This document shows positions 301 through 54,239 of a DNA stretch of 64,000 bases, one piece after another. Every line of letters starts with the position of its first letter. The first letter of the stretch is position 1. Source of the DNA: Takakia lepidozioides (lineage: Eukaryota > Plantae > Bryophyta). The notes below the pieces were generated by a model. That model saw only the letters and a program-made list of their open reading frames with translations, made no database searches and was not told the origin of the DNA. The stretch spans positions 56,048,001 to 56,112,000 of the forward strand of contig CM060731.1 of NCBI GenBank assembly GCA_030704615.1, read 5' to 3'. Both the position numbers and the translations under genes were made by a program.

Positions 301-722
301 AACACTAGCAAGATTAGTCATGATTGTTTCTTTAATGACATAATTCCTTGATCATTGCCAGACCCAAAATTGCACTATCATCAACATGCAGCAAACAAAA
401 ACAACCCTAATTTTGTTCTCTCTACCACTCCCACTGTCCGTTTTTCAGCATCTCAACGTTTCCACCCCAAGTTACCTCTGTAGCCATTGTATTCACCTTA
501 ACCCACCTGACATTCTCCCTAATCCACAGTGCCATGGTGCTTCGTCCTCTCGGATGAAAGACTTTAAAGTAATGGTCCCTATCATACAAACGTCAGGTTG
601 GATTGAAGAAATACAATCTAGGATCGGGATGAATAGCTGTCGTGCGCATACGTATCGCTACACAACTACATCGCTGTCCAAACCACACCACACATATATG
701 CACAATAAAGTAGTCTGCCACA

Positions 723-734
723 ATCGCCCCCCTA
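723..734 (-). promoter_or_regulatory. Probable polypurine tract of the DNMT-carrying element
   Basis: The minus strand reads AGGGGGGCGAT immediately before TGTGGCAG, downstream of the integrase-PHD stop. Confidence 0.5.
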
Positions 735-982
735 GCTGGTGGATAGGTCCCTCTAACTCCAGATAGCTACAAGATGTAATAGCCACAGCCGTACTAAGTC
801 CTCTATCACTGTCCCTATTGTACTCAAATTCTATATACCAAAAGGCCAGGTACAAGAGTAGCCCCATCGTTAGTCGCCGTCTTGCAATCTGTGAACTTGA
901 GCCAAGATCTCGTGTGTTCAAGGTCTCCTAATAGCTTGGCCTTGCATTTCTTGTTAGCCTTCCATGGTTGTATCCACTCCCA

Positions 983-1312
983 CTATCCAATGCAATGCGG
1001 ACATAACCAATCCCCATCAGGAACCATCTCAAGAGGTGGAGTCAAACATCCCATATGCCAACCTCTAGAGCATCGATCACACACCAGCATGGTGGCTGCC
1101 CCTCTAGCAGACCCACACAACATGCACCTCAAACTTGCAGGTACCACTGCCAGGTTTGGGTCAACCCTTCCATCAACATTTGGAAGGTGACATGGTGCGC
1201 AATTACGCACATGGTCCTTCCAAATCATGCCATCCCGACCCTCTAAGATCAGGACTCCTGAGGGCAACACCTCTCGAACCCTCAAAATAGTACGTTCTGC
1301 AGTCACATCCAA
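983..1312 (-). CDS. Integrase C-terminal region with PHD finger (C4HC3)
   Basis: CMLC...VCDRC..GWHMGC...VPDGDWLCPHC is a canonical PHD finger. It is in the same frame as the integrase ORF, separated by one TAG at 1328-1330. Confidence 0.9.
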   Translation of the reverse strand: MDVTAERTILRVREVLPSGVLILEGRDGMIWKDHVRNCAPCHLPNVDGRVDPNLAVVPASLRCMLCGSARGAATMLVCDRCSRGWHMGCLTPPLEMVPDGDWLCPHCIG

Positions 1313-1327
1313 GGTCGTAGGAGCAGT

Positions 1328-2269
1328 CTACTGCAGATAAACATAGTCACCAGGGTTAAATCTCCGAACCCCAGGACGATAGCTCCCACCACGTATGGTA
1401 GCATACCTCAACGTATCACGATGTTGTGCAATGGCAAGGTTCTCGAAAGCCATGGGCATGACTTTCTTGAACAACTCTGCACGTTGATCACATGCACGTG
1501 CCCACATGTCCGGATCATCAAGGTTGAGAACTGTAGCAGCTTCTCTATGAATGGATGCAGGCAAATCCGGCTCTCGGCCAAAGAGAAGAAAGTATGGTGA
1601 GAAGGAGACAAGTGATGCTTGCTTGTTGAACCTGCAGCCCATGGCTAACCAAGGTAACTGAAGGTCCCAATCTCCTAGGTGTCCCTTCTGCAAGCCATAC
1701 TTGTGCAAACCCCTCTTCACTGTCTGAACAACCCTCTCTGCCAAGCCATCGGCCTCAGGATGATCCCGAGAAGTGGTGCGGTGGTCTACCAAGGCTTTGT
1801 CACACAACGCCTGAAACTCCCCCAAGAACTCTCTCCCTTGGTCCGTGAGTACCTCAGCTGGAGCACCGAATCGGCTAAGTACACAATCCAAGAATGCATA
1901 CACAGCTCCCTCACTAGCCTTATCAGGCAATGGAACCAACTCGATCCACTTGGAAAAGTGCTCCACCATCACCAACACGTACTTGTTGTGGCGCATGGTC
2001 AATGGCAACGGCCCTGCGAAGTCAAGGCTCCACCTGTAGCCCAATCCCATGATCGGAAGATGATGCAATTGTGGAGTAGGGGCGTTGAATGAAGCACGCA
2101 CCCTGTCACACACCATGCACCTAGCCACAAATTGTTGCACCTCTGTGTGCATACCACGCCACCAATACTGCCCCTGCAGTAGACTATGAGTGCGTCGCAC
2201 CCCAAAATGCCCCAACTCCTCATGGGCATGCCGCACTAAACCGTGCCCGCTAGGTTGGGTGAGGCACAA
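1328..2269 (-). CDS. Retrotransposon integrase (HHCC + DDE core)
   Basis: HEELGHFG...CMVC zinc motif, plus SLDFAGPLP, VLTDQGREF and DGLAERVV catalytic D-D-E motifs. Confidence 0.95.
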   Translation of the reverse strand: MCLTQPSGHGLVRHAHEELGHFGVRRTHSLLQGQYWWRGMHTEVQQFVARCMVCDRVRASFNAPTPQLHHLPIMGLGYRWSLDFAGPLPLTMRHNKYVLVMVEHFSKWIELVPLPDKASEGAVYAFLDCVLSRFGAPAEVLTDQGREFLGEFQALCDKALVDHRTTSRDHPEADGLAERVVQTVKRGLHKYGLQKGHLGDWDLQLPWLAMGCRFNKQASLVSFSPYFLLFGREPDLPASIHREAATVLNLDDPDMWARACDQRAELFKKVMPMAFENLAIAQHRDTLRYATIRGGSYRPGVRRFNPGDYVYLQ

Positions 2270-3992
2270 TCCTCACTCGACCATCTTCCCACACTCGGAG
2301 CAGGTGTGTCCCCTCCCACTTGAACCTCTTGGCTCGTTGTAGGATCCGATCCCTCTCCTTGGCAGTCACAGTGGCTGCCGTGTCTCCAGTGCGGAGGTAG
2401 TCCAACACAGCTGAATCCTCATGTATATCTTTGGCGCCACCTTGCTCATTGCTGGCCTCAGGGTCCTCAGACACTTGATCTATAGTCATCCTTGTTGCAG
2501 GTCCAACCTGGCCTTCCGCTGCCAAGATACATAGAAATGCAGATGCATGCCATCCGGGCACCATCTCCTCGTCCGTCTCACCATGCCACCAAGCTCCAGT
2601 GTCATCTTGCTGGCTCGTGCATGGATTGCGACTCAACCCATCTGCATCCCGATTGACCAAACCCGGTCGATGCACAACCTGAAAGTCATACTCTTGAAGT
2701 ATGAGTGCCCACCGTGCAAGCTTCCCCGTAAGCTTGTCTGACTCCATCAACCACTTCAGTGGCTGGTGATCCATGACAAGGGTGAAGAGATTGCCATATA
2801 GATAGCACCTGAAGTGTGCCACGGCCCACACTGCAACTAAGCACTCTCCCTCATATGAGCTATACTTAGCCTCTGCAGCGTTGTTCGAGCGACTAACATA
2901 AGCCACTACGAACTCTCTTCCCTCATCATCCACCTGTGTGAGCACCGCTCCAAGCCCCAGCATGCTCCAATCTGTATGCAGCTGAAAAGGACGCCCCCTG
3001 TTAGGTCGTCTCAAGATGGGCGCCGAGGTCAACCTCGCCTTGAGCTCTTGGAAAGCTCGTTCTTGCTCATCTTCCCACTGCCACTCCTGGTCCACCTTGG
3101 TAAGCTTGGTTAGAGCCTTTGCAATGGCACTAAATCCCTTGACAAACCGTCTATAATAGTTTGCCAACCCCATGAAAGCTCGAACTTGGCTCACATCCGT
3201 GGGGCGTGGAATCTGTGCAATGGCCTCTACCTTAATCTGCTGTACCCCCAATCCTCCAGGATATATCATGTGACCCAGATACTCAATCTGGTTGTGGAAA
3301 AACTTGCACTTCCCCGGATGTAACTTCAATCCGTGCGCCCTCAAGCGCTCCAATACCACCTGAAGGTGTCTCTCATGCTCCTCCACCGTAGCACTAAAGA
3401 TGATGATGTCATTTATGTAGCACCGGTCAAACTCCACCCCTGCTAGAATCCTGTCCATGACTCTCTGAAACTCTGCAGGAGCGTTCTTAAGCCCAAATGG
3501 TAAGAACCGCCACTGATATAGGCAATCCTTCCCGTGCTCATTGATCCCCCAGAATGCCGTCTTCTGCTTATCCGCCGCTTTGATCGGCAACTGGTGATAT
3601 CCGGATCGTAAATCCAAAGTGCTAAAGACCTTGGCATGCCCAATGGCATCAAAGATCTCCTCAGGTGTTGGCATGGCATATCTATCGGACTTAGTCTGAC
3701 GATTTACAGGCCGGTAATCACCGCACATACGTCTCTCTGTCCAATTGCCATAGACATCCTTCTTGGCTGGCATCACTATGGCTGAAGCATACTCTCCACC
3801 AGATAGCTCCACCAAACCAGCCTCCCAGAGGACCTGAGTCCTCATCTGAATCAAGGACCTCTCCATGTCACTGTATCTATAGGGTCTCCAAAAGATTGGC
3901 GTGTCAATGGCCAATTCAATACGAATCTCTTGACCCTTCAGTGCTCCCAAGTCCTTCAAACTGAAGGCAAAGCAGTTCCTGTAAGCCCTCAA
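2250..3992 (-). CDS. Ty3/gypsy reverse transcriptase + RNase H
   Basis: RT motifs RMCGDYRPVN, LDLRSGYHQ, LPFGLKNAP and YINDII (YxDD mutated to YIND). RNase H motifs LHTDWS..GLGAVL, EGECL and DHQPL. Confidence 0.95.
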   Translation of the reverse strand: MRAYRNCFAFSLKDLGALKGQEIRIELAIDTPIFWRPYRYSDMERSLIQMRTQVLWEAGLVELSGGEYASAIVMPAKKDVYGNWTERRMCGDYRPVNRQTKSDRYAMPTPEEIFDAIGHAKVFSTLDLRSGYHQLPIKAADKQKTAFWGINEHGKDCLYQWRFLPFGLKNAPAEFQRVMDRILAGVEFDRCYINDIIIFSATVEEHERHLQVVLERLRAHGLKLHPGKCKFFHNQIEYLGHMIYPGGLGVQQIKVEAIAQIPRPTDVSQVRAFMGLANYYRRFVKGFSAIAKALTKLTKVDQEWQWEDEQERAFQELKARLTSAPILRRPNRGRPFQLHTDWSMLGLGAVLTQVDDEGREFVVAYVSRSNNAAEAKYSSYEGECLVAVWAVAHFRCYLYGNLFTLVMDHQPLKWLMESDKLTGKLARWALILQEYDFQVVHRPGLVNRDADGLSRNPCTSQQDDTGAWWHGETDEEMVPGWHASAFLCILAAEGQVGPATRMTIDQVSEDPEASNEQGGAKDIHEDSAVLDYLRTGDTAATVTAKERDRILQRAKRFKWEGTHLLRVWEDGRVRIVPHPT

Positions 3993-4349
3993 GAACCGCC
4001 GTATACGTCGTCTCTCTCCTCCGGTGACTATGGGTCCAACATCAGGCTCCCAGTTGTTCTCCGTGACTGCAACCTTGAGTCCAGCAGGCTTAGAGGTAGA
4101 AGACGCGTCCCGTGGTTGCTATGCTGCAACCTCTTGAGTAGTGACCACTGCCTCCTCTCTCAGTGATAATGTCCCATCCTGCCCCATCATCCCATCCTTG
4201 AGGACCTCCTCAACCCGAGAAAAATCCCCAACCTCATCCATCACCGCCGCCTTGGCTGCCAACTCCTTCTAAACCTCGAGCACCTCCCACGTGTGCCACG
4301 GATGCAGCCTGCACCTCGTGGTCCTCACCTGCTCGCCCCCACTCGCTGC

Positions 4350-5741
4350 CTATACCGTCTCGGTAGGCAGGGAGACCATGAAGGGAAGTGTACTAAGTAC
4401 TCTGTGCTGCTCAGCCATAGCCAAGCTGATAATCCAGGTCAAGCAATTGAGATCCATTGCTTGCCCCAACACCTGATGACGTGATGCCTCAGAAAGATGT
4501 GGCACCGCCGTGGTACCAGTGGTAAAACCCATCGCCCGCTCGCGCTCGTCAGCATTGGGCTCCACTAATTGTTGCAACTGGCTATCCCACAAGAGACTAG
4601 GTCCCCCATCCCGAAAAGCATGGGATCCTGGGAAGCTGAGCAGTGTAGATAATGCTGCTCGTGGTTGACCCACCCCGTTGACCACTGCCAAAGACGAACG
4701 GTCATCGTGTCTCACACGTTGAGACTGCCTCCCTGTGTCCAAAATGCTATCCACTGTGAGGTGTGCTGGCCGCTGCACCCCATCAAATGCACGTTTGAGC
4801 AGTGCGGGTGGCATCAAGTTAGTCCACCATAGCCGTGGACGATGAGTCCGTGACCCCACTGCAGCTGCATCCAGCAACACTGCTGACCCAAGCCACGACC
4901 GGACTTGATGCACACTGGCCATCACCCTGGCCCGAGAATCGCCCATCAGTGGCACATTCTCCAAGATGTATGCTGGAGATACAGCTTGATGAAGCTGCAA
5001 GTGGCGCAAAACCCGCACCATCTCCCAAAACAGACCCATCCTCGTGTCTCGCATTCCATTGCCATGCCGGGCTGATGAATGCCCTTGGCAGGGCCAACCT
5101 GCCACTACCAGATCAATGGAGCCAACCTGCTCCAAATCATGCGCCCCCAACAACGAAATGTTTGCTGGCAAGGCTTGTTGGTATCCACGAACTGTAGACA
5201 CTGGCAACAAATTAAGGTACTGCTGTACCAACTGAACAACATGGCGCAGTGAGACGCGTCGTGCAGTCTCATCCCTCTCCACATACAAGTAACGTCGAAC
5301 TCGTACACCTGCCTGCAGCACTGCAGCCAATCCAGTGCTGATCCCGCCAAACAAGTCCAGAAGGCATATGCCTTCATCCGGGCACTGCCACACAAGAGGT
5401 GTGGTGTCCAATGGCGACAACTGAGGTGGTCCTGGTGCAATCCCCGCACTCTCCTCTTCTCCTGACGGTACGAAGGCCTCTACCCAGGCTTGTTGCACCC
5501 GTTCATCAGCAGCTTGCTGCAAATCCTTGCTCGTACCCCACAATGGAGTGTGAGCAACCATGGCAGACAACTCCGCCGTACCATGCATGTCATCCTGCTC
5601 TGCTGGAGGTGGCACATCCTTTGCATGGGCATTGCCTTCCAGCAACTCTCCAGGCCAACTAACTGCAGCTATAAAGGCGGCTAGTGTTGGCATTTTGCCC
5701 CGCTGGGCAGCCGCAATACCCCCAATGAATGTCACCATCAA
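4350..5741 (-). CDS. DNMT3-like C5 cytosine DNA methyltransferase domain within the retrotransposon polyprotein
   Basis: Motif I LLDLFGGISTG (~5340-5365), II YLYVE, IV DLVVAGWPCQ (catalytic Cys 5088-5090), VI ILENV, VIII RPRLWWTN, IX ERERAMGF and X RHQVLGQAM. Order and wording parallel DNMT3 (LSLFDGIATG / GGSPC / FENV / RARYFWGN / EMERVFGF / RQRLLGRSW). Confidence 0.92.
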   Translation of the reverse strand: MMVTFIGGIAAAQRGKMPTLAAFIAAVSWPGELLEGNAHAKDVPPPAEQDDMHGTAELSAMVAHTPLWGTSKDLQQAADERVQQAWVEAFVPSGEEESAGIAPGPPQLSPLDTTPLVWQCPDEGICLLDLFGGISTGLAAVLQAGVRVRRYLYVERDETARRVSLRHVVQLVQQYLNLLPVSTVRGYQQALPANISLLGAHDLEQVGSIDLVVAGWPCQGHSSARHGNGMRDTRMGLFWEMVRVLRHLQLHQAVSPAYILENVPLMGDSRARVMASVHQVRSWLGSAVLLDAAAVGSRTHRPRLWWTNLMPPALLKRAFDGVQRPAHLTVDSILDTGRQSQRVRHDDRSSLAVVNGVGQPRAALSTLLSFPGSHAFRDGGPSLLWDSQLQQLVEPNADERERAMGFTTGTTAVPHLSEASRHQVLGQAMDLNCLTWIISLAMAEQHRVLSTLPFMVSLPTETV

Positions 5742-6837
5742 GGCCTGTAGCTGTGCACGACGACCATCCCCTGACTGCCATCAAGGCCTGTAGGATGCTG
5801 ACTCCTCCCGAAAGTCCAGGGTGAAGCCCATGGGATATAACACTGCCCCCCACGAGGACATCGTAAGAGACCGCGTCTGTCACAATGGCCTTGGCTCGCA
5901 TCACTGAGCCATCTATAGGATGATCCGGCTGCAGCCTAATGACCAACTCACGCCGTGTCATGCCCCGAGCCTGCTCTGATTCTCCCAGAGATGTCTGTAT
6001 CTGGAAAGGACAATGCTCCATATCCGCCTCCATGAGGCCCAAACCTGCAATAGCAGCTCTGCCCAACATCAGTGGCTGAGCTTCCTCCGAGTCCAACAAG
6101 ACCCGCAGTGGCCGGTACTTCTTACCTGCCGGTCCACTCAAAGAGAAAATGCCATCCTGGTTGTCTAACAAAACAACTCCAAGAGTCACCATGGCGCGCT
6201 CAAAGGCTGGCCTAGCAGGCAGCTCCGTCAACCTGGCAACTGCAGCTTTCCATGGCGCAGCCGTGGCAGTCTTGACCCTCAAATTCGAGGATCCCTCTGC
6301 CACTACACCTTCCAGTAACTCCGCAGAAGATGAAGTGACCTCCCCACTCTCACAGAGTGTTGCTGCTAGTCTGAACACTGCAGCTGGTCTTACCCCCGGC
6401 GTCGCAATCATGGTTGCCGAGACCAGTGGGGCTTGACACACAGAGGTGGCTGCCCCCAATAACACACCGGCTGCACTAGCCTTGGTAGCAGGTGTCAGTG
6501 ATGCACGTGTAGCTCTCCCCAATGGCATAGTAACCTCCACCTCGGTAACAGTCGAGCGAGAGCTAGATGCCATGGATGGCGTCGACACTGTCTCCGCCAA
6601 TGTGAATGACTGAGGGAGCCTCGCCTGACGGCTTGCCTCCCCACGCTGTGGATCCAATTCCACCTCTGCACCTCGTGGCTCAGGAACCGTGCTGCTTCCT
6701 CGAGTCACGGCTGCAGCGATCCACCCTGCTCTATTGTGCTGCTCCGCACCTGAATCCCATGCTCCCATATCTCCTCCCTCAGGAGCAGGAGGTGGACCAT
6801 CCCGCCTGGGAGCCGGTACCACCTGAGCTGTAGCCAT
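5659..6837 (-). CDS. Gag-Pol linker and retropepsin aspartic protease
   Basis: RVLLDS..AQPLMLG active-site-like motif and YDVLVGG flap/C-terminal motif. A frameshift near 5845 leads into the DNMT frame. Confidence 0.7.
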   Translation of the reverse strand: MATAQVVPAPRRDGPPPAPEGGDMGAWDSGAEQHNRAGWIAAAVTRGSSTVPEPRGAEVELDPQRGEASRQARLPQSFTLAETVSTPSMASSSRSTVTEVEVTMPLGRATRASLTPATKASAAGVLLGAATSVCQAPLVSATMIATPGVRPAAVFRLAATLCESGEVTSSSAELLEGVVAEGSSNLRVKTATAAPWKAAVARLTELPARPAFERAMVTLGVVLLDNQDGIFSLSGPAGKKYRPLRVLLDSEEAQPLMLGRAAIAGLGLMEADMEHCPFQIQTSLGESEQARGMTRRELVIRLQPDHPIDGSVMRAKAIVTDAVSYDVLVGGSVISHGLHPGLSGGVSILQALMAVRGWSSCTATGLDGDIHWGYCGCPAGQNANTSRLYSCS

Positions 6838-6849
6838 GGCAGGGAGCCT

Positions 6850-7200
6850 CTACTCTAGCTGCTGAAGCTGGTTGGCCATGCCTTGGTCAACACCCCGACC
6901 TTTGCGTCCTTGGCCATGTTGAGCTTGCCCTTGGCCTGCACCTCGTGCCCGGCCACCTCGTCCTCTCTGGGCTGGTCCACCTCGCCCCCGGCCACCATTG
7001 TTCCCTTGGAACTGGCCTGGGCGCAACTCAGGATGCAAGTCATAACACTGGGCATCTCCATGCCCATACTTGCCACAATGCCCACACTGCAACTGTGCAG
7101 GCTGTGCTTGTGCCGACCTTTTGCCACTCTCTAGGCAATCTCTCTTGACATGGGGTCATCCACATGTCCAACATATCACCCCTGGTTGTTGTTGGCTTGC
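6850..7200 (-). CDS. Gag nucleocapsid: two CCHC zinc knuckles and an RGG-rich tract (interrupted by stops)
   Basis: CWTCG*PHVKRDC and CGHCGKYGHGDAQC, followed by GGRGRGG repeats. Confidence 0.8.
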
Positions 7201-7276
7201 AAACTGGCCTCTGCACCTGAGGTCCCCTGTAAGCTCCATGAAATTTGGGTTGGGAAACCTTGCCCCCCTGACCACG

Positions 7277-8305
7277 CTATTGGGCAGTCCCTTGTGCCTG
7301 TGGGCTGGCAGCTGCGCCTCGTGCAGGCATGTCTTTGCCAAATCCAATGGTAACAACTCGTTCCTCCACCATGTTGAGCTCAATCCGCTCAGCCAGCAGA
7401 AACACATCTACTAATGTGGGTTGGGATGCTTGTAACAGGGTTGCATCCTGCACCCTTCTCCTGAGCTCCTTGTCCAAAATTCCATACCAGAACTGGATTG
7501 CCTGAGCTTCAGTAACCCCTTGGGTCACACTTATCAAGCGCCTCATACGAGTGTACGCCTCTCGCAGGCTCTCACTGGGTTTGCACTGGAAGTCTTGCAA
7601 ACTTCGTAGCTTCTCTGTCCGTACACCTTGATAGTTCCTCCGCAACTCCTGGAAGAACTCCACCACCAGGCTGAATGTAGGCACATGTGTTGTAGTTGTG
7701 GGATGATGAGTAGTAGGACCGTCTGCAGAAGTACCGGCACTACTTGTTCCACTACTAGTGCTAGCCGTGGGAGGTATTGGTGCTGATGCCGGTACTGGCC
7801 GTGTTGTTCCTCGAGTAATGGAGACGTAGTCAGGTGACCAATATATCCTCCACTCTTCAATTTTTGCTTCATGTCCTCGCCTGAACTCGTGGTAATCGTC
7901 CATAGGCGGGCCTTCCAAATGCTGGAACAATCCCTTCCACGCCATGAATGGGGTGAACAGCTGTGGATTGCGCATTTGCTGCAAATCACACCAGCTGTCG
8001 AACTCCTGGATAAAATCATCCAGCTCGATTGTGCCCACAGCTCCAGAGTACCTACGAGGCCCCTTGGTAGCTCTATACATCTCCTCCATGTCGTCCCACA
8101 ACAATGGCGAAGAAAACTGCACACTTGTTGATGAAGCCTCCAAGTCTGTGTCAGACTCTGCAGTAGTTGAGGGTGGAGGTGAAGGTGGTCTGAACCGAAT
8201 ACCTCGTCTTGTGAACCCACTCTCACTGTTACTGCCTGTAGGCGTACTCCCCTCAAAACCCTTGGGTAACTCCGTGATGACACTCACAATGTGCACCTCC
8301 CCCAC
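7277..8305 (-). CDS. Retrotransposon Gag (capsid)
   Basis: YSGAVGTIELDDFIQEFDSW... and FQCKPSESLREAYTRMR (major-homology-region-like Q...ES...Y..R). Confidence 0.8.
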   Translation of the reverse strand: MGEVHIVSVITELPKGFEGSTPTGSNSESGFTRRGIRFRPPSPPPSTTAESDTDLEASSTSVQFSSPLLWDDMEEMYRATKGPRRYSGAVGTIELDDFIQEFDSWCDLQQMRNPQLFTPFMAWKGLFQHLEGPPMDDYHEFRRGHEAKIEEWRIYWSPDYVSITRGTTRPVPASAPIPPTASTSSGTSSAGTSADGPTTHHPTTTTHVPTFSLVVEFFQELRRNYQGVRTEKLRSLQDFQCKPSESLREAYTRMRRLISVTQGVTEAQAIQFWYGILDKELRRRVQDATLLQASQPTLVDVFLLAERIELNMVEERVVTIGFGKDMPARGAAASPQAQGTAQ

Positions 8306-10089
8306 GTGACACTATAAGTACTAGTACTAATTCTAATAGTAACACGGGTGGGCACCTGTTGCAGTTTAAGGGTCATATCCCAGTGGCTCAGGGCACCTGC
8401 ACTTGCATCCACCGCAAGAACTCCTATGGTTGGCTGGTCATCAACCCAGTCTCACCATAGAAGAAACACTGGTGGTCTTGCTGGTCATCACTCCAGCCTC
8501 ACCACCGACAACATACTCTAGGATTGACCGGTGATTAAATCCGGCCTAATCCCTATGAAACCAAGCGCCCACAAAAAACCAACATGGCGCACAGTCAAGC
8601 ATGCAGGTGTTGGGGGGATCCAAACACAAGAAATCAAAACATCAACACCCCCACACCAAAATCCATCTGCAATGCTGATCCTGCAGAATATCCCAGCCCA
8701 AAACCCCGGACTGACTGGCCTCCACCAAGAGAGGCTTTGGCAACTACAAGTACAAAGTAATGAAAATAGTAAAGAGAGGGAGAGGAAGAATAGAAGCCCG
8801 ACCAAGCAAGATCTAATCCTGATCTATGCTATCAACTGCCAGACTTCTCTCAAAGTGCCTCGCTCTGCATGATGGTAAGGTGTAGGAGGTATATCTATGT
8901 CCAGAAACCTGCCACTAACCTTGTCCCAAGCTACAGTAGCTCGCTCTAACCAACCCTCCTCCTCTTTCTGCCAGGTAGAGACAAAGCAATACTCCCCTAT
9001 CTTCCGCTCACTGAACACTAAAGAAAATAAAGGTAGGGTTTGACAGTCTCTCAACTTGAAAGCTTTGAGACGGTTGCGGGTGTCCTCATTGCGAATGACT
9101 ACATCTCCTTCAAGCAGAACAAACTTGTCATTGCTAATGAACCCCCGCTCGTGGTTGCCTTGTGCAGAGCGTGTCCGGCTGCAACCATGTCTGATTGCAC
9201 AAACTTGTGTAGCTCCTGCTCCTCTGCTCCAGTACACCACGGCCTTGTGGCTGAACACCTTGGTCCCCGGGGCTGTCTTTGGCTGTGTTCCAAGCCTAGC
9301 TTTCACCCACTTTGGTATTTCACCTACAGCTGCAGAACTGCTGGCTCCAACAAAGTTCTGACTGTCCAAAGCAATATTGAGGCCCTCAACGCCAACTACA
9401 TCAGTTTGTTGTCTACTGCTAATGCCTGACTCCCAGTATGCAATCAACTCGTCAACTGTTCTCCACTCAAATCAGTCTGAGTTCCTTGGGAAACATAAAT
9501 CTTGTCCCTTTGTATGCACAGGCTAAGAGAAGAGACCTGCCCTTCAATTACGTCCTCATTTCCCCCAGCCATACAAGGAGGACATCCACAGATTTGTCTC
9601 TCATGTAGACCACAACAGGTTCTAGAAACAGAATTGTGGATCTTTCATAGCACACTCACACTCACACTCAAAAAATTCCATAGATTTTTAGCAGAGTCCA
9701 AAAAACTAAAACCATAGGTAGATTTCCCCATTCTGTAAGTCCCTGCGCAAGTTTTGGGTCAAACGGCCTTGGTAGGCCAAAGTTATGGCCAAACATGCTC
9801 TATCTAATTTAAATTAGATCAAAGAACGATTTTCTTTTAATTTTTCACACCCAAAACGTTCTCGCCATTAAAAACTGTTCCCACGTTTTTGCGATTCACT
9901 GCAGGTTCCCATCACGTTCAAAATACCGTGCCCTGTGAGTGCCCGAAATGGTGGAATTGAAGTCTACCAACAGAGGTTGCTGTGCAGGGATCCTCCTTCG
10001 CAGGCACACGCTTGGCAGCTGCTGCACGTCCTGCATCCCGGGTCTGCCATGCCTCTGGCGTCGGGGCTGCTCTTTCACTCTCCAGCGGC

Positions 10090-10204: not shown

Positions 10205-10342
10205 GAGATGTGTAGATGGAGCAATCGATGAGTGCCCAGGTTGCAGCGGGAGTCTCCTGCTTGTCTTTATGCAAGGTGGGGCACTGATGAAGGTCTATAG
10301 CTACGCTTTAAAACATTTTCGATCTGCACTCCATCAGGCTCC

Positions 10343-11168
10343 TTGTTGGCAATCGAGGTATTGGTTGCGGCCTATGTAGGTCAGATGCTGTCAAGAGGGC
10401 CTTTGAGTTGTTGCAAGTGTCCACTTGTGAAGGATCCTCAATGCGCTCAACTCATTCCTGATTGCGTTCTTCACCTCTTTCATGGGGATCCTACCATGTT
10501 CGAGTCCTACTGGCTGGCCCAGCCCCAGGCAACCACTGTAATCCTAGCGTGGCAAGGCATGAGCTATTTTGCTCACAAGCACAACGCCTTCCTGTTTGTG
10601 GACCACCATTTGGACCAGACAATCCGTGCCTTTCACAGCTTTGTTGAGAATGTTGTCGCCGAGAGCCGCTACATTGTACTTGGAACTGGCTCGACACACT
10701 TGTTCCAAGCTTCAATTTACGCCCTATCCTCGCCCCAGTCGTCCACTCCAACGAGCATCATCTCGGCTACCCCTTATTATTCGCCGTATCCAGACTTGAC
10801 AGACTTCCTCAAATCCGGGGTATTCAAATGGGCAGGAGATGCACACCAGTTTCAACAGAACTCTTCACAAGATGCTTACATTGAGATAGTGACATCACCC
10901 AATAATCCAGATGGAACCATCCGGCATGCTGTGGTCAATGGCAGTGGATCAACAGCTCATGATCTCGCCTACTACTGGCCACACTACACTCCAATCACCT
11001 CCGCTGCTGACTTTCCCGTGATGCTCTTCACTTTCTCCAAAATCACAGGCCATGCTAGCACTCAACTCGGTTGGGCGGTTGTGGAAGACGAGCGCGTTGC
11101 CATCAAATGGCGGAGTTTGTTCGATTGAACACACTTGGTGTATCCCAGGATGCACAAGCCCGGGCAAC
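10343..11168 (+). pseudogene. TAR: TAA1/TAR-type (alliinase-family) PLP aminotransferase, 5' part, intronless
   Basis: Motifs HGDPTMFESYW, GTGSTHLF, PYYS, EIVTSPNNPDG, HDLAYYWPHYTPI and FTFSKITGHA (PLP Lys). After a frameshift near 11105 it reads MAEFVRLNTLGVSQDAQARA up to the LTR insertion. Confidence 0.9.
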
Positions 11169-12237
11169 TGTTAGAGGACGGTAGGGGACTTAGACACTTA
11201 TACGGGATCTGTAGGGTACCCTTAATTTTTGCACAGACTGAGACAAACAGGAACCTTAGGGGTGACAGCAGCGCACTGTAGAGGGGGGTTACATAGCCCA
11301 CACAGCCGACACAGCAGTCACAGCCCACACAGTCGTCACAGCCCACACAGCCACACAGCCGGCACAGTCGTCACAGCCGACACAGCAGTCACAGCCCACA
11401 CAGCCGTCACAGCCCACACAGCCCACACAGCCGTCACAGTCGACACAGCCCACACAGCGTCACAGTCGTCACAGCCCACACAGCCCACACAGCCCGTCAC
11501 AGTCGTCACAGCAGACACAGCCCACACAGCCAGTCACAGCCCGGCACAGCCACACAGCCAGTCACAGCCCGACACAGCCAAACACAGCCAGTCACCGCTT
11601 GACACAGCTGTCACGATAATAGGGAACGAAGAGTAGGACAGGGAACGACTGTGGGGAACAACACCAGTGAAGGGAACATGTTAGTTCACATACGACGGTT
11701 AGAGAGGGAAACGGTTAGAACCGCGGATAGGAGGATAAAGGGAAGAACGGGGAATGATGAAGGATGATTATGATCATTATTCGGGAAGGACTTCGGAGAC
11801 AGGCGGGAGCGGAGATCGGAGAGCACGATGAAGGAGAAAAGAGGATTAGTAGATGCTTGTTATATGCAAAGCTATAGTGATATAGGAAAGAAGAATAGAG
11901 ACATAATGGCTTCGGCCTGATACCTGATAAATCATAATCTGATACTTATACGATACAATCACACTGTGTAGAGAGATCTGAGTGAAGCTGTGGATTGAAT
12001 GGATGAGTGAAGGAAACCGATAGATTGATGAAGCAAACTGATACTTAATTATCAATGGTAAGGTAGCTAAGATGAATGCGGAAAGGGAAACAAATAGGAA
12101 ACACCCCCATGATACACTGGCTGTAGGTCATGACTGATTGTTCTGCGCGGGCTGAGTACTTAGAGATTTCCAACTCTTCTATCTTGGAGTTTCCGCCTCG
12201 GATAGCGAAGGGATGGGTGAGTAAAAGCCGCGCGACA
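11169..12237 (+). repeat. 5' LTR (1069 bp) containing a CACAGCC/CACAGTC tandem array
   Basis: Starts TGTTAGAGG and ends CGCGACA; near-identical to 22468-23458. Confidence 0.96.
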
Positions 12238-12239
12238 TT

Positions 12240-12259
12240 TGGCGACCATACTGGGGACC
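12240..12259 (+). promoter_or_regulatory. Primer binding site (tRNA-Arg-like)
   Basis: TGGCGACCATACTGGGGACC lies 2 nt after the LTR end and resembles the TGGCGACT..CTGGGGA PBS of plant non-chromoviruses. Confidence 0.7.
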
Positions 12260-12264
12260 TGGGA

Positions 12265-12825
12265 CATGAACAACCAGATGTGACAGGCATCTGGTGGGAT
12301 CATGGTGGTTGGACCATTAAAGAATTTGAAGTGAATCAAATTCCCTGTGGAACGAAGGAAGAAAGATTGTCCAAACAATTCTTTCAAAGGTTCTTGGAAT
12401 TGCCAGACGGATGTAAAGAAAATATTCTTAAACGAGTGCATGATGCTGATCCAGAATGGGGTCTGGAGAAAGGAGTGATAAAGATTTATCAGGTAGCCTG
12501 TAGAGGAAGAGCACGTTGGTTACCAACATTAGTTTATGTGATAGCGTTGCTATCCATTAAACGAGTAGAGTTTGAAGGCTGGGAAGAAAGAAAGGTGAAT
12601 GTTTATACTCATATGCATGAAGAGCTTGTACTGGTAAAGAATTGGATTCCAAAGGATATTTTGTGGATCAAACTCACACCAAGAACAGCTTTTCAGACTT
12701 GTTTGCCATATGGTTATATGGTAACGGAGACTTCAAGTATAGCCAAGGGTGCATTGAAGCTTGAAAGAAATCCAGGCATATACGAGAGATATTACAGAAG
12801 AGAGTTTTGGTTATTGCCACATTAA
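12265..12825 (+). CDS. Extra ORF upstream of gag, unknown function
   Basis: Stop-free frame (track ORF 12130-12825) between the PBS and gag; no recognisable motif. Confidence 0.5.
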   Translation, partial: HEQPDVTGIWWDHGGWTIKEFEVNQIPCGTKEERLSKQFFQRFLELPDGCKENILKRVHDADPEWGLEKGVIKIYQVACRGRARWLPTLVYVIALLSIKRVEFEGWEERKVNVYTHMHEELVLVKNWIPKDILWIKLTPRTAFQTCLPYGYMVTETSSIAKGALKLERNPGIYERYYRREFWLLPH

Positions 12826-13213
12826 AAGAAATGAAAGACATGGGACATGAGTGATGAAAGAGAAGCTAGACGACAAAGATATTCATCAAAAAGAGAAAGC
12901 TATCTGAAAGCTAATTATCCATATCTTTGGGAGAGAGGAATAGACATAGGGGAATCATCTGGACCTCTCACACCATCAAGATCAAAAGTGCATCACCTAT
13001 ACCGGAAGAACTAGAGTTGGATGCCACTCCTTCTGTTTCTTTGCAAGAAAGATTAAGGGAATTGGTACAGGAAGAAGATCAATCACGAGGTGAAAGATCT
13101 GAGGTACATCCTTGGATAAAAGACTTGACAGAAATCTTTGATAAGAGTTGGCATGGAACACCAAAAGCAGGAACTCCAGTTTCTGAGCAGAAGATGAAGA
13201 AGGAGATGAGGAT

Positions 13214-14790
13214 GTGGCAGAGCCAACGGAGAGTTCAGACTCTCCAACACCATTACAGTTGAGTTACATGAGTGAAGAAGAAACCCAAGGGCAGAACTTG
13301 GAGGATGAAAACAGAGAGAAGAAATTAGAAGAGGAAGAATATGAAGAAGTAGACCCAACAGCTGAGGTTGAGACTACAACCAGGACATCCCAACCCGTTG
13401 GACCTGGATCAAGTGGAGCACTTGGATCACAGGCCAACGAAGGTGTCGGCTCAGGGGGATCAGGCGGGCTGCCTGGATCTGGCTCTGGGGGGACAGGGAG
13501 TGTGGGAAGTAGTGCAACTGAAGCTGGGAATACTGTGAATATCGTGGGGCCAGAAGCAGGGAGTGCTCAAGGGCCACCACTTGGTGGAAGATCCACCACA
13601 AAAACAACAGGTCCAGAAGGACCAGCACCAGCAAGGGTGCCAGCACCTGTCAGTGGGCAGAAGGTAGGGCCACAGATGGCGTTACAACCAACACGGGCAA
13701 AACCACCCTTTCCAATATATTCAGGAAAAGGGGATCCCGATGTACACATTAGCCAATTTGAGCACATGTGTATAGTGAACAATGAGAATGGCGATGATGC
13801 CAAGATGAGACTGTTTCCTTGTTCACTTATCAAGAAAGCAAGTGAATGGTATGCAAGATTCCCTGATAATCATTTCCTAACCTGGAATGGCTTGAATACA
13901 GCATTTCGAAATAGGTTCAGGACAAGTAAAACTGAGGATGAAGTGTATGGAAGTTTACAACAGCTGAAGCAGAAGAAGCATGAAACTGTTGAAGAGTATA
14001 TGGAGAAGATGGAATTGATGATGAAAAAGCTGGCTGCAGTACCAGCACCCGGTTTACAGAAGACTTGGTTTGTGAGTGGACTAAGACCAGAGTTGCAGAA
14101 GAAAGTGGATATGTTACCCCATAATACAGTGGAGGAGGCATTTGAAACTGCAAACAAAATTGAGCAATTGGGAATGCTCAGGAGAGAGAAAAAGGAAGAT
14201 GAGGACTCTGAAGATGAGTCAGATGAAGAAGAAGAGCAAGAACTAAAAAGAAAGAGTAAGAGAAAGGAAAAGTTGAAGAGGGATAACTATGAGAAAAGAT
14301 TGGAAGAAATCTTGAAGAAGTATGCCACAGAGGCTGCAACACATTGGAGGAAGGGTGTATGGTGTGCAAAGTGCCAGAATGAAGGCCATACCACTGCAGA
14401 ATGCCACATGAAGGAGAAACACTGTACTATCTGTAAAATGGATAACCATTCTACTGAGAATTGTTACTACAACAGAAGGACAGCTGCAAGAGAACCTAGG
14501 CAAGTAAGGGTGCATCAAGTGCAGCCCCAGCCAAGAAGAATAATGATCAGGACCACTATGGTAGGTCTGGTGGTTATAACAATGGCATGGAAGGGAGAGG
14601 TAATTCAAGAGGGAATTACCAAGGAAATTCCAGAGGCAACTATCAGGGTAATCCAAGGGGAATTACCAGCCCGGGAATCAGGATTATAGAAATAATCCAA
14701 GAACAGACCAAGGGCGAGGACCCAATGGTGAAGAGCTATGTTACTATTGTAATCAGCCAGGACATCGCAAGGCAGCCTGTTCATTCTGGA
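13214..14790 (+). CDS. Gag with capsid domain and three CCHC knuckles (frameshift near 14540)
   Basis: YSGKGDPDVHISQFE, LFPCSLIKKASEWY and LKQKKHETVEEY. Knuckles CAKCQNEGHTTAEC, CTICKMDNHSTENC and out-of-frame CYYCNQPGHRKAAC (~14740). Confidence 0.9.
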
Positions 14791-15291
14791 TAAGACACCA
14801 GAATGAGATGAGAGCTCCTGTGAATGAGGGCCCAGTGGTGGCAGCTCACATGGTTAGGCCATGTGTTGTACCAGAAGTAAGTACAATGATAGTAACAAGA
14901 AGTAAAGCCAAACTAATACCTCCAGTAGAAGAGGAAGAAGATGAGACTGGAAGTGGCAATGATATGCCTGAAGATGAAGAGACTTGGAAAGATGAGAAGG
15001 AACTGCACAAGGAAGTGGCAGATACTATAAGGGAAATGCAAAAGAGTACGGATATTCCTGTGGCAGATTCCTCTGATTCGGATGGAGAAAAAGAGGGAGT
15101 GAGGAAGAAAGGAAAAAAGAAGATGCAGACATGCAAAGTAATGAAGAGACTTTGGCTGAAGTAATATGTCAGACCAAAGCAGAAATTACCATTGGACAGC
15201 TATTAGCTGTGGCACCTTATTGTAGGCACAGGCTGTATCAGGCAATCAATCGAATTGCCCAAGAGACAGGAACACAGACCTGAACAGCAAG

Positions 15292-18200
15292 GTGACCAGT
15301 TATAATGTGAAGCCGGAAGGGCGAGAACCAGTCATGGACTTTGATGATTCTATGCCAGTAATCCAATTGAGAATTGGAAGCACAGAACTAACTGATGTAC
15401 TGATAGATGGTGGTTCTGGAGTAAATATCATGACAGACCAATTAAGGAAGAAGCTTGGTCTAAGTAACATGAAACCAGCCCCATTTACAGTAACAATGGC
15501 AGATCAAAGAAGTGTACAGCCATTGGGATTAATAAGAGGAGTTAAGATACAGATACAGAAAATGATCTTTATGATCACAGTAACTGTATTAAAAATGGAT
15601 GAAGTCATGGAGGCTTACTCCTTATTATTGGGACGTCCGTGGCTGAAACAGGCCAGGGTATTCCATGACTGGAATTCTCAGTTACTAACTGTGCATAATG
15701 GGATGCACGAGATACAAATTACCACAAAGAAATCTAGTAGATTACCTGCTACAAGAAGACCTCGAGGAGTCAGAGAGTATGACTGGAGGGAGGACTGGAT
15801 GAGGAGCAGGAAGCTACCCTATTTGCTGCACACCCAGAATGGGAGCAGGTTGCAGAGATGCGGCTGGAAAGCCTAAGTTGTTTGAGAGGTATCTGCTGTG
15901 GTGTAGTGACAGCAACACCAATTGAAGAGGAAACCAACTGTTACCCACCACATTTCTATGAAGAAAAGGAGGGAGAGATAGAAATCCTAGAAGAACCAGC
16001 CACTGTGAGCTTAAAGGATGAAGTGGTGACTGGTTGGACAATCACAGCTGATGAGCAGGTGAGAGAAGTAAATGTGGGAACTCAGGAGGAACCGAGAATG
16101 GTGAAAGTAGGAGCTGATTTGGAGCCAGAGTTCTTCGAAGAAGCTAAAAGCTTGTTCATCAAATACGAGATGTATTTGCTTGGAGCTATGAGGATCTAAA
16201 AGGGATACCACCTGAAGTCTGTCAGCATAAAATTGAACTGGAACTAGGGTCAGTACCAATCAAGCAGGCAAGGTATAGAATGAATCCCAACTACGCACAG
16301 AAGGTTGGAGAAGAGATAAAGAAGTTGGCTGAGGCTAAGTTTATATACCCAATAGAGTATACAACTTGGTTGTCACCCATTGTTATAGTTCCCAAGAAGA
16401 ATGGCAAACTAAGAGTATGTGTGAACTATAAGAAGCTGAATGCTTGTACGAAGAAAGATCCTTTCCCTTTGCCATTCACAGAAGCAGTATTAGACACTGT
16501 GGCAGGCCATGAGATGTACTCATTCATGGATGGCTTCAGTGGTTATAATCAAGTGCAAGTGGCAGAAGAAGACCAAGGGAAAACAGCTTTCATCACAGAC
16601 TGGGGGCTTATGCATACAAAGTCATGCCCTTTGGACTTTGTAATGCACCAGCGACCTTTCAGAGAGTGATAAGTGAATCTTTTCATGAGTATCTGGATGA
16701 TTTTCATGCAGGTATTCTTGGATGATTTCAGTGTGTACAGCTCTAAGAGTGAGCACTTGCATAAATTGGAGTTATGCCTGGCCAGATGCAGGATGAGAGG
16801 TCTGGGCTTGAACCCAGAGAAGTGTACTTTCTGTGTGAACTCAGGGGTGCTTCTGGGACACATTGTGTGTAAGAAGGGACTCCTTGTGGATCCCAGGAAG
16901 ACAGAGTCCATTAAAGTCTCTCCACCACCAGTGAATGTTAAGAGTTTAAGGAGATTCCTTGGGCAAACCATTATTACAGAAGATTTGTCAAAAATGATGC
17001 ACAAATAGCAGCACCATTGAGCAAGCTTCTGAAGAAAGATGCAGTGTTTGCATGGACAGCTGAATGTCAACAGGCGTTTGAGGAACTTACACTGTCAGTA
17101 ACAACTACACCTGTGCTGATTAACCCTCACTGGCATGTAGTATTTCATGTTCACTGCGATGCATCAGGAGAAGCGTTGGGAGCGGTGTTAGCCCAGAATG
17201 TTACAGGGAATATAGATTCACCTGTGTACTATGCTAGCCGGTTGATGAACAGTGCTGAGAGGAACTATAGCACAACGGAAAGAGAAGCATTGGCATGATC
17301 TATGCAGTGAAGAAATTCAGGCATTACCTATTGGGAAGAAAGTTTATGTTTTATGTGGATCACCAGGCTCTGATATATCTGGTGAACAAACCTTTGATAA
17401 GTGGAAGGATAGCGAGGTGGTTAATAATCTTGCATGAGTTTGAGTTCGAGGTTATTTACAAGCCTGGCCGTTTGCATCTTGTGGCAAAGGCATCATTTGT
17501 CACACTACAACAGGAGAGGCCGCCACAGGAGGGACGATCAGTTACCTGATGCGAGTTTATTTGTAATGGAGGTGCAAGGAAGGTGCAGAGAATGGTTAGA
17601 TTGGCAGTGGCCAATCAGATACTACCTTGCTCATGGTCAGTGCCCACCTAGTTATGGTAAGGAGCAGAGGAAGAGAATCGCTATCAAAGCTTTACCTTAT
17701 ACTATGGTAGGAAGCAGAATGTATAAGTTAGGACCAGATGGGGTACTAAAACGATGCTTGTACCACCATGAAGTAAATAAAGTCCTTGGAGGAAGTTCAT
17801 AAAGGAGTGGCTGGAGGTCATTTTGGAGAAGAGACTACCAGTAGAAAGATACTACTCGCAGGATACTGGTGGCCCTACTTTGTTCAAAGATGTACATGAG
17901 TATTGTCAGAAGTGTGATGAATGTCAGAGGCTAGGACCTTTGCAGAGATCTGGAAGAATGGCCTTGCCTCCTACAATGCCTACGGAACCATTTCAGAAAT
18001 GGGGACTAGACTTTGTTGGACCAATTAATCCACCATCCGAAGCACGAAACAGGTACATAATTACAGCCACTGATTATACTACAAAGTGGGTGGAGCTAAA
18101 GCTTTGAGGGACAACACAGCCAAGTCCACAGCAAGGTTCCTGTACGAGAACATACTTACACGATTTGGATGTCCTTAGAATTATCAGTGATCAAGGAAGT

Positions 18201-38624: not shown

Positions 38625-39029
38625 AGCAATGTTTTTTTTGGAAGGTGTGTGTGTCTTGCTTCATTCACTAAAATGCTGCTGCTTGAGTCATTCACTGTGC
38701 TGCGAGAAAGTTGTCTTTGATGTACCATCAAGGGCCTCTGAGGCACTTTTCACCATCCAATAGCCAATTGTGGGGCTTACCCAGCAGGAGGTGGAAACTA
38801 AACCAGAAATTGGTCCTGCATAACCAATGGCAATCTGATTGCAGGCTTAAAGTGTGTGACAGGTGTCTGGCATTGGACTGCATAGTAGTGCCTCAAAGAG
38901 AATGTACTCATAAGATGTTGTTTGCTGTAGCTTTGTGCCATTGAACCCACGCCCAGTTTGAGCAGAACACGAAGGGACAGAAACTACCTTTGTCAGGGGG
39001 ACGCCGGTAGTCTGACTTACCTTGAAACA

Positions 39030-54232: not shown

Positions 54233-54239
54233 TCCATTC

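What the first reader, a model, noticed from the sequence alone, without database searches (positions are those of the whole stretch)
983..8305. Land-plant Ty3/gypsy retrotransposon encoding its own DNMT3-like cytosine methyltransferase inside Pol
Seen: a C5-MTase domain with motifs I, II, IV (PC), VI (ENV), VIII, IX and X, and no stop inside the domain, sits between protease and RT. It is in the same frame as RT (both ORF starts are 2 mod 3) and is separated from it only by three TAG codons (4350, 4269, 4119). It joins the protease through one frameshift and one TGA. So it is an integral polyprotein module, not a nested gene. Established: DNMT-carrying retrotransposons have been described in dinoflagellates and in the charophyte alga Klebsormidium; ordinary embryophyte gypsy elements lack this domain. 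Inference: the enzyme would be cut out by the protease, packaged with RT and integrase, and could methylate the new cDNA or the insertion site (self-silencing, camouflage or anti-defence). The neighbouring PLS-DYW, TAR and extensin genes suggest an embryophyte host.
Basis: partly seen in the sequence, partly recalled or inferred. Interest (0 to 1): 0.93.

Follow-up and report, generated by a model that had tools for sequence, protein, structure and literature searches.

The report
Bryophyte retrotransposon carrying capsid-linked DNMT3
This is a broken copy of an abundant jumping-gene family of liverworts and mosses that carries its own DNMT3-type DNA-methylating enzyme, a kind so far described in print from algae; a conserved, likely leaky stop codon would make the enzyme as plentiful as the capsid protein, likely to mark each new DNA copy, which likely inserts from a circle.

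Summary
Observation confirmed, interpretation corrected. The minus strand holds a decayed Ty3/gypsy element: Gag, zinc knuckle, protease, DNMT, RT, RNase H, integrase, PHD. The DNMT is unbroken, hits PF00145 and is closest to DNMT3A/B by sequence and fold (Z 28). It is no one-off capture: relatives occur in Marchantia, Riccia, Calypogeia and Sphagnum, and dN/dS between families is 0.08-0.17. The three TAGs are not equal. Two are private damage. The third (4119-4121, followed by CAA CCA) is conserved: 55 of 57 loci have a stop just before RT, and 53 have CAR-YY after it (7 of 706 control stops do). So the DNMT ends the Gag-protease frame, and RT-integrase likely comes by readthrough: the enzyme is Gag-linked, not inside Pol. 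Relatives have split repeats (A-internal-B-A-B), 4-bp target duplications and a self-priming site, which suggests integration of a circle cut at an internal palindrome. A sister group in green algae carries the DNMT between RNase H and integrase. Closest known: KnitGypsy-Dnmt3 of Klebsormidium. Enzyme activity, readthrough and circles are untested. The scan noted this family before on other DNA, including this genome. Verdict: new variant of a known kind.

The parts
638..723 (-). Repeat B (distal U3), ending in CACGACA at the 3' end of this copy. No second A-B follows, whereas other host copies continue into repeat A here.
   Evidence: Sequence; matches B of L066 and L014; loose ends at 635 in 47 contigs of X1
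724..735 (-). Polypurine-tract-like stretch directly before B
   Evidence: Same motif before B in L007, L011, L014, L020, L048, L055, L066 and others
992..1126 (-). PHD finger at the C-terminus of integrase, cut off by a stop at 1328-1330 in this copy
   Evidence: PF00628 E 2.3e-11; in frame with INT in L048 and L055
1331..2242 (-). DDE integrase with H2C2 zinc-binding domain; frameshifted from RNase H near 2243 in this copy
   Evidence: PF17921, PF00665
2250..4118 (-). Reverse transcriptase (about 3264-3734) and RNase H (about 2688-3077); the RT catalytic motif reads YIND here
   Evidence: PF00078, PF17917, PF17919
4113..4121 (-). Conserved stop with readthrough context, TAG CAA CCA (UAG-CAR-YYA), ending ORF1 (Gag-PR-DNMT)
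   Evidence: 55 of 57 loci have a stop 10-30 codons before RT, 53 with CAR-YY; no variant listed at 4120-4121 in four runs
4269..4352 (-). Two private stops (4269-4271, 4350-4352) in the ORF1 tail: damage of this copy
   Evidence: 4271 differs in over 99% of laid depth; the 92%-identical P0075 has sense residues at both
4392..5420 (-). Unbroken DNMT3-type C5 cytosine methyltransferase domain
   Evidence: PF00145; best PDB hits DNMT3A/B; model pLDDT 89.4; Foldseek and VIA-align top hits DNMT3
5781..6200 (-). Aspartic protease, damaged (stop at 5781-5783, frameshift near 5850, small indels at 6083-6086)
   Evidence: same ORF as the DNMT in Marchantia P0002 and P0312
6850..7200 (-). Zinc-knuckle / RGG nucleocapsid region, broken by stops
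7277..8311 (-). Gag capsid region
   Evidence: 55% identical to the N-terminus of Marchantia P0312; weak PF03732
8312..9803 (-). 5' region shared with other host copies, holding a 215-codon frame (8824-9471) with no hit. No 5' repeat A, TATA/self-priming pair or target duplication is recognisable, so the copy looks 5'-truncated at about 9803.
   Evidence: Depth profile; no match to the A start with 3 mismatches; no self-complement; no Pfam or Atlas hit

Best explanation
This is a decayed copy of an abundant bryophyte Ty3/gypsy family whose first reading frame is Gag-protease-DNMT3 and ends at a conserved stop that is likely read through to make RT-RNase H-integrase-PHD, so the methyltransferase would be made at capsid-protein level and likely methylates the element's own new DNA. 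Shown: domain order, unbroken DNMT3-type domain, purifying selection, the conserved stop and its context, and in relatives the split repeats, 4-bp target duplications and self-complementary primer site. Inferred step 1: a minority of ribosomes read through UAG-CAR-YY (about 10% in TMV). Inferred step 2: the protease releases the DNMT inside the particle. Inferred step 3: self-primed reverse transcription gives a linear DNA with two B+A LTRs whose ends are joined into a circle. Inferred step 4: integrase cuts the internal GACA-nn-TGTC palindrome, giving A-internal-B-A-B (two-LTR circle) or A-internal-B (one-LTR circle, or later B1 x B2 recombination). Inferred step 5: the DNMT methylates cytosines, likely CG, on that DNA so that the new copy arrives already marked; the PHD finger likely reads chromatin at the target.
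For: DNMT3 identity: profile E 5e-22 for DNMT3A against 4e-10 to 3e-7 for DRM and 2e-6 for M.HhaI; fold Z 28.4 DNMT3B and 27.0 DNMT3A against 24.0 for the next family. Spread: named relatives at 58-73% in Marchantia polymorpha, M. paleacea, Riccia sorocarpa, Calypogeia fissa and Sphagnum; 75 of 80 metagenome loci show further element domains in the same order, 5 show DNMT alone. Selection: DNMT dN/dS 0.08-0.17 in 7 between-family pairs with estimable dS; catalytic C kept in 71 of 73 loci and the motif VI E in 73 of 79. Stop: 55 of 57 loci, CAR-YY in 53; after merging at 80% identity, 6 of 6 have the stop and 5 have CAR-YY; control decay stops have CAR-YY in 7 of 706. TMV UAG-CAR-YYA is a proven plant readthrough signal (PMC2754532). 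Elements with the stop form one branch in the RT-RH tree (100/99). Ends: L066 is A-int-B-gc-A-B; 4 of 5 loci with both termini have a perfect 4-bp duplication; A2|B2 junctions carry one extra base, or 9 bases of the primer site (L033, L035). Primer: 9-16 nt complementarity between A and the bases after A in 11 of 17 5' A repeats, about 30 nt after a TATA-like box, and 16 nt in the distant L048.
Against: No activity is shown. The Klebsormidium DNMT did not methylate yeast DNA, which its authors call inconclusive. CpG observed/expected is 0.50 in the element and 0.49 in the rest of the window, so there is no signature of self-methylation. The full CAR-YYA is present in only 7 of 57 loci; the Sphagnum-like majority has CAA-CCC followed by an in-frame ATG, which allows re-initiation instead, and 16 of 55 stops are TAA. 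A symmetric two-LTR circle should also give A-B-A-internal-B, but 0 of 16 distinct 5' ends show it against 4 3' ends with B-A-B. Related algal elements lack the DNMT (Gonium, Pleodorina, Tetrabaena), so it is not essential to the lineage. Most dS values between families are near saturation. This copy lacks its 5' A and its target duplication, so the end structure rests on relatives.
Confidence: 0.6

Rival explanations
1. One reading: one continuous Gag-PR-DNMT-RT-RH-INT-PHD polyprotein, with all three TAGs being decay.
For: DNMT and RT are in frame in 42 of 58 junctions including the window. Unnamed relatives P0288, P0296 and P0329 do have one unbroken ORF.
Against: The third stop is kept in 55 of 57 loci, including the unbroken L048 and L055 and the host's own copies. 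Marchantia ORF1 proteins end after the DNMT. The one-ORF forms lie outside the branch that holds the window.
Confidence: 0.04
2. The stop is real and RT-integrase is made by splicing, re-initiation at the next ATG, or a separate RNA. The DNMT is still Gag-linked.
For: Sphagnum-like copies have ATG two codons after the stop; some relatives use TAA.
Against: The window, L003, L048, L049 and L055 have no ATG there but keep CAR-YYA. The frame is conserved across the stop.
Confidence: 0.1
3. The DNMT acts mainly in trans or without catalysis: it silences existing copies or host loci, or binds nucleic acid in the particle, rather than marking new cDNA.
For: Gag-level expression gives far more enzyme than one cDNA needs. 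No compositional mark of self-methylation. No activity for the Klebsormidium enzyme in yeast.
Against: Catalytic residues are conserved. In chlorophyte relatives the same domain sits between RNase H and integrase, where it would travel with the cDNA.
Confidence: 0.2
4. A nested or captured host DNMT3 gene decaying neutrally, or algal or contaminant DNA.
For: Pairs of decayed Sphagnum-like copies give DNMT dN/dS 0.42-0.48. No whole genome was available.
Against: RT gives similar values (0.31-0.37) in those same pairs. RT and DNMT trees agree on the main split. An intact PLS-E-DYW gene lies in the window. One contig of run X1 spans the 3' junction (179-662) with no difference.
Confidence: 0.02

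Closest known systems
KnitGypsy-Dnmt3 of Klebsormidium nitens (de Mendoza et al. 2018, PMC5890265; 'Gypsy-DNMT3' of streptophytes in bioRxiv 10.64898/2026.05.21.726589)
   Same: Gypsy domains, an unpermuted DNMT3-type domain, purifying selection (Ka/Ks under 0.2), and DIRS-like split repeats.
   Different: Described in an alga with the DNMT in the Pol ORF. Here the hosts are liverworts and mosses and a conserved stop separates the DNMT from RT. Readthrough, self-priming, PHD and chlorophyte relatives are not in the text I read. No K. nitens sequence was returned, so kinship is untested, and Fig. 4c could not be seen.
PHD-bearing Gypsy elements of Chlamydomonas (Gypsy-7a_cRei, PMC9940879; REM1, Perez-Alegre 2005, seen only as cited)
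   Same: Gypsy with a PHD finger in the green lineage; my searches found many chlorophyte RT-RH-INT-PHD proteins related to the window.
   Different: No DNMT is mentioned for them in the passages read; their sequences were not compared.
SymbioDIRS-Dnmt3 and DIRS/PAT/Ngaro elements with split direct repeats
   Same: A-coding-B-A-B repeats and a methyltransferase; the SymbioDIRS DNMT3 methylates CG de novo in yeast. Circular intermediates of DIRS are recalled.
   Different: DIRS use a tyrosine recombinase; this element has a DDE integrase, a protease, TG...CA ends and 4-bp target duplications.
TMV-type stop-codon readthrough (UAG-CAR-YYA; PMC2754532)
   Same: Identical context in the window, L003, L048, L049 and L055.
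   Different: Here it lies between Gag-PR-DNMT and RT, downstream of the protease; it is untested experimentally.
Self-priming Tf1/Tcn1-type elements (Neumann et al. 2019, PMC6317226)
   Same: No tRNA primer site; the bases after the 5' repeat are complementary to a site about 30 nt after a TATA-like box.
   Different: PHD instead of a chromodomain, and permuted ends; placement among REXdb clades was not tested.

Membership tests
Ty3/gypsy (Metaviridae) | Order Gag-PR-RT-RH-INT with a DDE integrase | tested here: met
Ty3/gypsy (Metaviridae) | TG...CA ends and 4-6 bp target duplication | tested here: met
   In relatives: TGTC...GACA, 4-bp duplication in 4 of 5 loci with both ends; the window lacks its 5' end
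Ty3/gypsy (Metaviridae) | Two colinear full LTRs | tested here: not met
   Split A-int-B(-A-B) repeats instead; the underlying B+A unit looks like an ordinary LTR that is permuted
DNMT3 family | Unpermuted C5-MTase motifs, closest to DNMT3 by sequence and fold | tested here: met
   The single-sequence best phage hit is about as weak as DNMT3A (25% identity, E 2e-11); the profile and fold separate DNMT3
DNMT3 family | Groups with host DNMT3 in a tree against DRM, CMT, MET1 and bacterial enzymes | not tested
   No host or reference DNMT sequences were returned as usable proteins
DNMT3 family | De novo cytosine methylation activity | not testable with these tools
   Catalytic residues are conserved; an assay is needed
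KnitGypsy-Dnmt3 | DNMT3 inside a Gypsy coding region under purifying selection | tested here: met
KnitGypsy-Dnmt3 | DIRS-like split repeat structure | tested here: met
   Complete in L066; 3' half in L014, L020, L034, L048, L055; only B in the window
KnitGypsy-Dnmt3 | DNMT in the Pol polyprotein ORF | tested here: not met
   Conserved stop before RT in this branch; met only by unnamed one-ORF relatives
KnitGypsy-Dnmt3 | Same RT/DNMT clade as the K. nitens copies | not testable with these tools
   No K. nitens name among the listed hits or the 20 proteins looked up
DIRS | Tyrosine recombinase, no DDE integrase | tested here: not met
   rve and H2C2 found; no recombinase hit in the 8 element frames scanned
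Phygy | NCGN target preference | tested here: not met
   Duplications AAGG, TACA, CACA, TGTG
Troyka | CG...CG ends, 3-bp duplication, animals only | tested here: not met
TMV-type readthrough | UAG followed by CAR-YYA, in frame with the downstream ORF | tested here: met
   Window; 4 of 6 families at the 80% threshold have the full hexamer; function untested

The most novel reading that the evidence does not exclude
A green-plant-wide gypsy lineage, from chlorophytes to mosses and liverworts, integrates as a circle that its DDE integrase cuts at an internal palindrome. It has kept a DNMT3 for hundreds of millions of years and moved it from Pol level to Gag level behind a leaky stop. The enzyme methylates the new DNA, including the CG conserved in the att site (CACGACA in the window, Sphagnum-like loci, L048 and L055), and so protects the att copy left inside integrated elements from being cut again, in the manner of a restriction-modification pair.
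Probability: 0.2. Interest if true: 0.9.

Novelty: new variant of a known kind. Interest (0 to 1): 0.62.

Why it matters
It extends DNMT-carrying retrotransposons from a few algae to land plants, including the model Marchantia polymorpha, where unbroken Gag-PR-DNMT ORFs are annotated as hypothetical host genes (for example Mp_4g09160). The open question of why a transposon carries the enzyme that silences it becomes testable in a genetic model. Element-made DNMT3 could also confound counts of bryophyte DNMT genes and add to de novo methylation when elements are derepressed. The end structure points to a DDE integrase acting on circles, which departs from the textbook linear-end model, and it explains why tools that look for paired LTRs would miss these elements.

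Tried and rejected
No whole genome is held, so intact host copies and copy number could not be read. Summed contig depth in X1 is about a thousandfold higher over the element than over the flanks, but the tool says this is no copy number. No RNA holder was listed: no evidence either way. Viral contigs gave no match. No LTR pair or 5' A repeat was found in the window; a 6-base match to the A start at 9803 is treated as possibly chance. could not judge the 4350-4352 stop because it lay too near the end of the stretch; P0075 and other relatives were used instead. YN00 failed on most saturated pairs, so NG86 is quoted. CpG depletion was uninformative. The 215-codon frame at 8824-9471 has no Pfam or Atlas hit. 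The search for K. nitens copies failed; one search listed only 120 of 561 hits and 150 of 2914. Troyka and Phygy were considered and rejected. Trees have no true outgroup and are midpoint-drawn; rows were thinned (RT 113 of 146, DNMT 127 of 222) or hand-picked (46 rows; P0008 was labelled as stop-type by inference from other Marchantia proteins), so the direction of the DNMT's move is not established. A look-up of earlier findings by sequence and by place returned nothing.
Full report
OBSERVATION. The minus strand from 8311 to 983 encodes Gag, a zinc knuckle, protease, a C5 methyltransferase, RT, RNase H, integrase and a PHD finger. The copy is dead: alignment to a Marchantia ORF1 and to the ORF2 of L048 shows eight stops besides the one at 4119 and at least three frame changes, and the RT active site reads YIND.

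WHAT THE DOMAIN IS. It hits PF00145 at E 4.6e-12. Against solved structures the best hits are DNMT3A, then DNMT3B/C, then DRM and bacterial enzymes, both for the single sequence and for a 39-sequence profile (5e-22, against 4e-10 to 3e-7 for DRM and 2e-6 for M.HhaI). The AlphaFold model (pLDDT 89.4, pTM 0.90) matches DNMT3A/B first by Foldseek and by VIA-align: Z 28.4 over 279 residues at 2.6 A, then DNMT3A 27.0, M.MpeI 24.0, M.HhaI 21.8, DNMT1 18.5. Phage methyltransferases are only about 25% identical. No tree with host DNMTs was built, so 'DNMT3-type' rests on these rankings.

IT IS A FAMILY TRAIT. Named relatives come from Marchantia polymorpha, M. paleacea, Riccia sorocarpa, Calypogeia fissa and four Sphagnum species. 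One 90% cluster holds 18 members, 15 listed and all from Marchantia, five of them 1278-1281 residues long. The metagenome scan confirmed 178 stretches and kept 80; 75 show further element domains in the window's order and 5 show the DNMT alone. These loci were found through the DNMT, so they cannot reveal DNMT-less copies. As a partial check, contig depth in run X1 is similar over DNMT and RT, and one X7 contig bridges 718-5680. Between families the DNMT has dN/dS 0.08-0.17 (NG86, 7 pairs with estimable dS, most near saturation; 0.14 at dS 0.25 for L048/L049). Pairs of decayed copies give 0.42-0.48, close to RT in the same pairs. The catalytic Cys is kept in 71 of 73 loci and the motif VI Glu in 73 of 79; the motif VIII arginines are lost more often (48 of 79 and 62 of 79 kept), by changes typical of CpG decay.

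THE THREE STOPS DIFFER. Of 80 loci, 57 had a complete DNMT-RT junction within 600 bases. Of these, 55 have an in-frame stop 10-30 codons before RT (38 TAG, 16 TAA, 1 TGA), 53 followed by CAR-YY and 7 by the full CAR-YYA. After merging at 97% the counts are 44 and 42 of 46; at 80%, 6 and 5 of 6. Of 706 decay stops inside the domains only 7 have CAR-YY. The window has TAG CAA CCA. In four runs laid on 4090-4370 no variant is listed at 4120-4121, while 4271 differs in over 99% of X1's depth. The 92%-identical P0075 has sense residues at both upstream stops. L048 has unbroken frames of 1369 and 1047 codons on either side of the stop, and Marchantia P0002 and P0312 end about 75 residues after the DNMT. 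UAG-CAR-YYA gives about 10% readthrough in TMV (PMC2754532). So the DNMT is the tail of Gag-PR and would outnumber RT and integrase roughly tenfold (inferred). Against this: the Sphagnum-like majority has CAA-CCC-ATG, which allows re-initiation.

ENDS. The window has no LTR pair. L066 shows A (1679-2017), internal region, polypurine tract, B, two bases, A, one base, B, with an AAGG duplication. Four of five loci with both termini have a perfect 4-bp duplication (L019, L033, L060, L066; L027 has one mismatch). Four distinct loci have B-nn-A at the 3' end, as do the distant L048 and L055, and nine end after B1. B starts after the purine tract and ends GACA; A starts TGTC and ends TTCA, followed by bases complementary to a site in A about 30 nt after a TATA-like box (9-16 nt in 11 of 17 5' A repeats; 16 nt in L048). 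Thus B+A reads as an ordinary self-priming LTR, yet the genomic ends lie in its middle. The simplest account (inferred) is that the linear cDNA is closed into a circle and integrase cuts the internal GACA-nn-TGTC palindrome. The A|B junctions fit end-joining: one extra base, or nine bases of the primer site in L033/L035. Unexplained: the mirror product A-B-A-internal-B is absent (0 of 16 distinct 5' ends). In the window B is 638-723; other host copies continue into A at this point, and the 5' A is missing, similarity ending near 9803.

WIDER LINEAGE. An RT query from an algal-type relative returned 561 proteins, 120 listed. Of 177 held proteins of 600 residues or more, 90 read RT-RH-DNMT-INT-PHD; named ones are from Scenedesmus, Enallax, Tetradesmus, Haematococcus and Pleodorina, and some Gonium, Pleodorina and Tetrabaena proteins lack the DNMT. 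RT-RH and DNMT trees both split DNMT-before-RT from DNMT-after-RH elements (99 and 100 SH-aLRT). In the careful tree of 46 chosen rows, the 9 stop-bearing elements form one branch (100/99) inside a 16-row DNMT-before-RT branch (100/100) whose other members, all unnamed, have one continuous ORF. There is no outgroup, so the order of events is open.

HOST. An intact PLS-E-DYW gene, a TAR-like frame and bryophyte nearest relatives point to a bryophyte, likely a liverwort or moss with RNA editing (recalled: Marchantia lacks it). A contig of run X1 spans the 3' junction without a difference.

FUNCTION. Nothing here shows activity. CpG observed/expected is the same inside and outside the element, and the Klebsormidium enzyme was inactive in yeast while two dinoflagellate DIRS DNMT3s methylated CG. 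I commit to methylation of the element's own new DNA as the most likely role (0.6 for the whole mechanism), with action in trans or binding alone as the main rival.

LITERATURE. PMC5890265: parts 1-4 of 7, passages, and a word search of 3 supplements. Its main supplementary PDF was too large and figures are not held, so the K. nitens domain order is unseen; this bears on how far my variant differs. Marchantia and Sphagnum do not occur in the files searched. PMC12440569: parts 1-4 of 5. Passages only: PMC6317226, bioRxiv 10.64898/2026.05.21.726589 (supplements not seen), PMC11982613, PMC8557442, PMC10538959, PMC9940879, PMC2774666, PMC3441728, PMC2754532. REM1 was seen only as cited. Ten searches listed no paper describing DNMT-bearing gypsy elements in bryophytes, their readthrough or their circle-type ends; the library lacks most subscription journals, theses and Repbase reports. 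Five unreviewed notes of this scan, two from this genome, describe the same family with the leaky stop or permuted ends. My readings were noted before that look-up, and those notes are not independent support.

VERDICT. Real; a new variant of a known kind; interest 0.62.

Noticed in passing
window 9802-9819: A perfect 18-base palindrome exactly where similarity to the family ends; it may be a repair or excision footprint at the 5' truncation.
   Followed up: partly
window 8299-8352: Hairpin-like inverted repeat at the start of the gag frame.
   Followed up: no
window 8824-9471 (-): 215-codon frame inside the family's 5' region with no Pfam or Atlas hit; it may be an extra ORF or captured DNA.
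   Followed up: partly
window 28776-32312 (-), with relatives at 37000-44500 and 54200-54700: Intact 1178-codon PLS-E-E+-DYW PPR gene with near-identical 303-base repeats, plus several decayed paralogues on both strands.
   Followed up: partly
window 10301-11128 (+): Intronless alliinase/TAR-like frame (PF04864 E 5e-81), possibly a truncated or retroposed copy.
   Followed up: no
window about 12100-18200 (+): A second, distantly related decayed Ty3/gypsy element (Gag, protease, RT 29% identical, RH, INT), flanked by a repeated CACAGC-rich stretch at about 11300-11600 and 22550-22830; no DNMT hit.
   Followed up: partly
window 53546-53985 (-): Fragments of eukaryotic LSU rRNA inserted among PPR fragments.
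   Followed up: partly
L080 14652-16511 and L051 1-2061: A different RH-INT(-PHD) gypsy family (52-57% identical integrase) beside the DNMT element; whether it has a DNMT is unknown.
   Followed up: no
P0190, P0205: Unbroken RT-RH-DNMT-INT-PHD proteins named from Enallax costatus and Tetradesmus deserticola records that look like transcript assemblies, suggesting expressed algal members.
   Followed up: partly
P0088, P0053: Element proteins annotated as bacterial MAG genes (Obscuribacterales, Minisyncoccia); likely eukaryotic contigs mis-binned.
   Followed up: no
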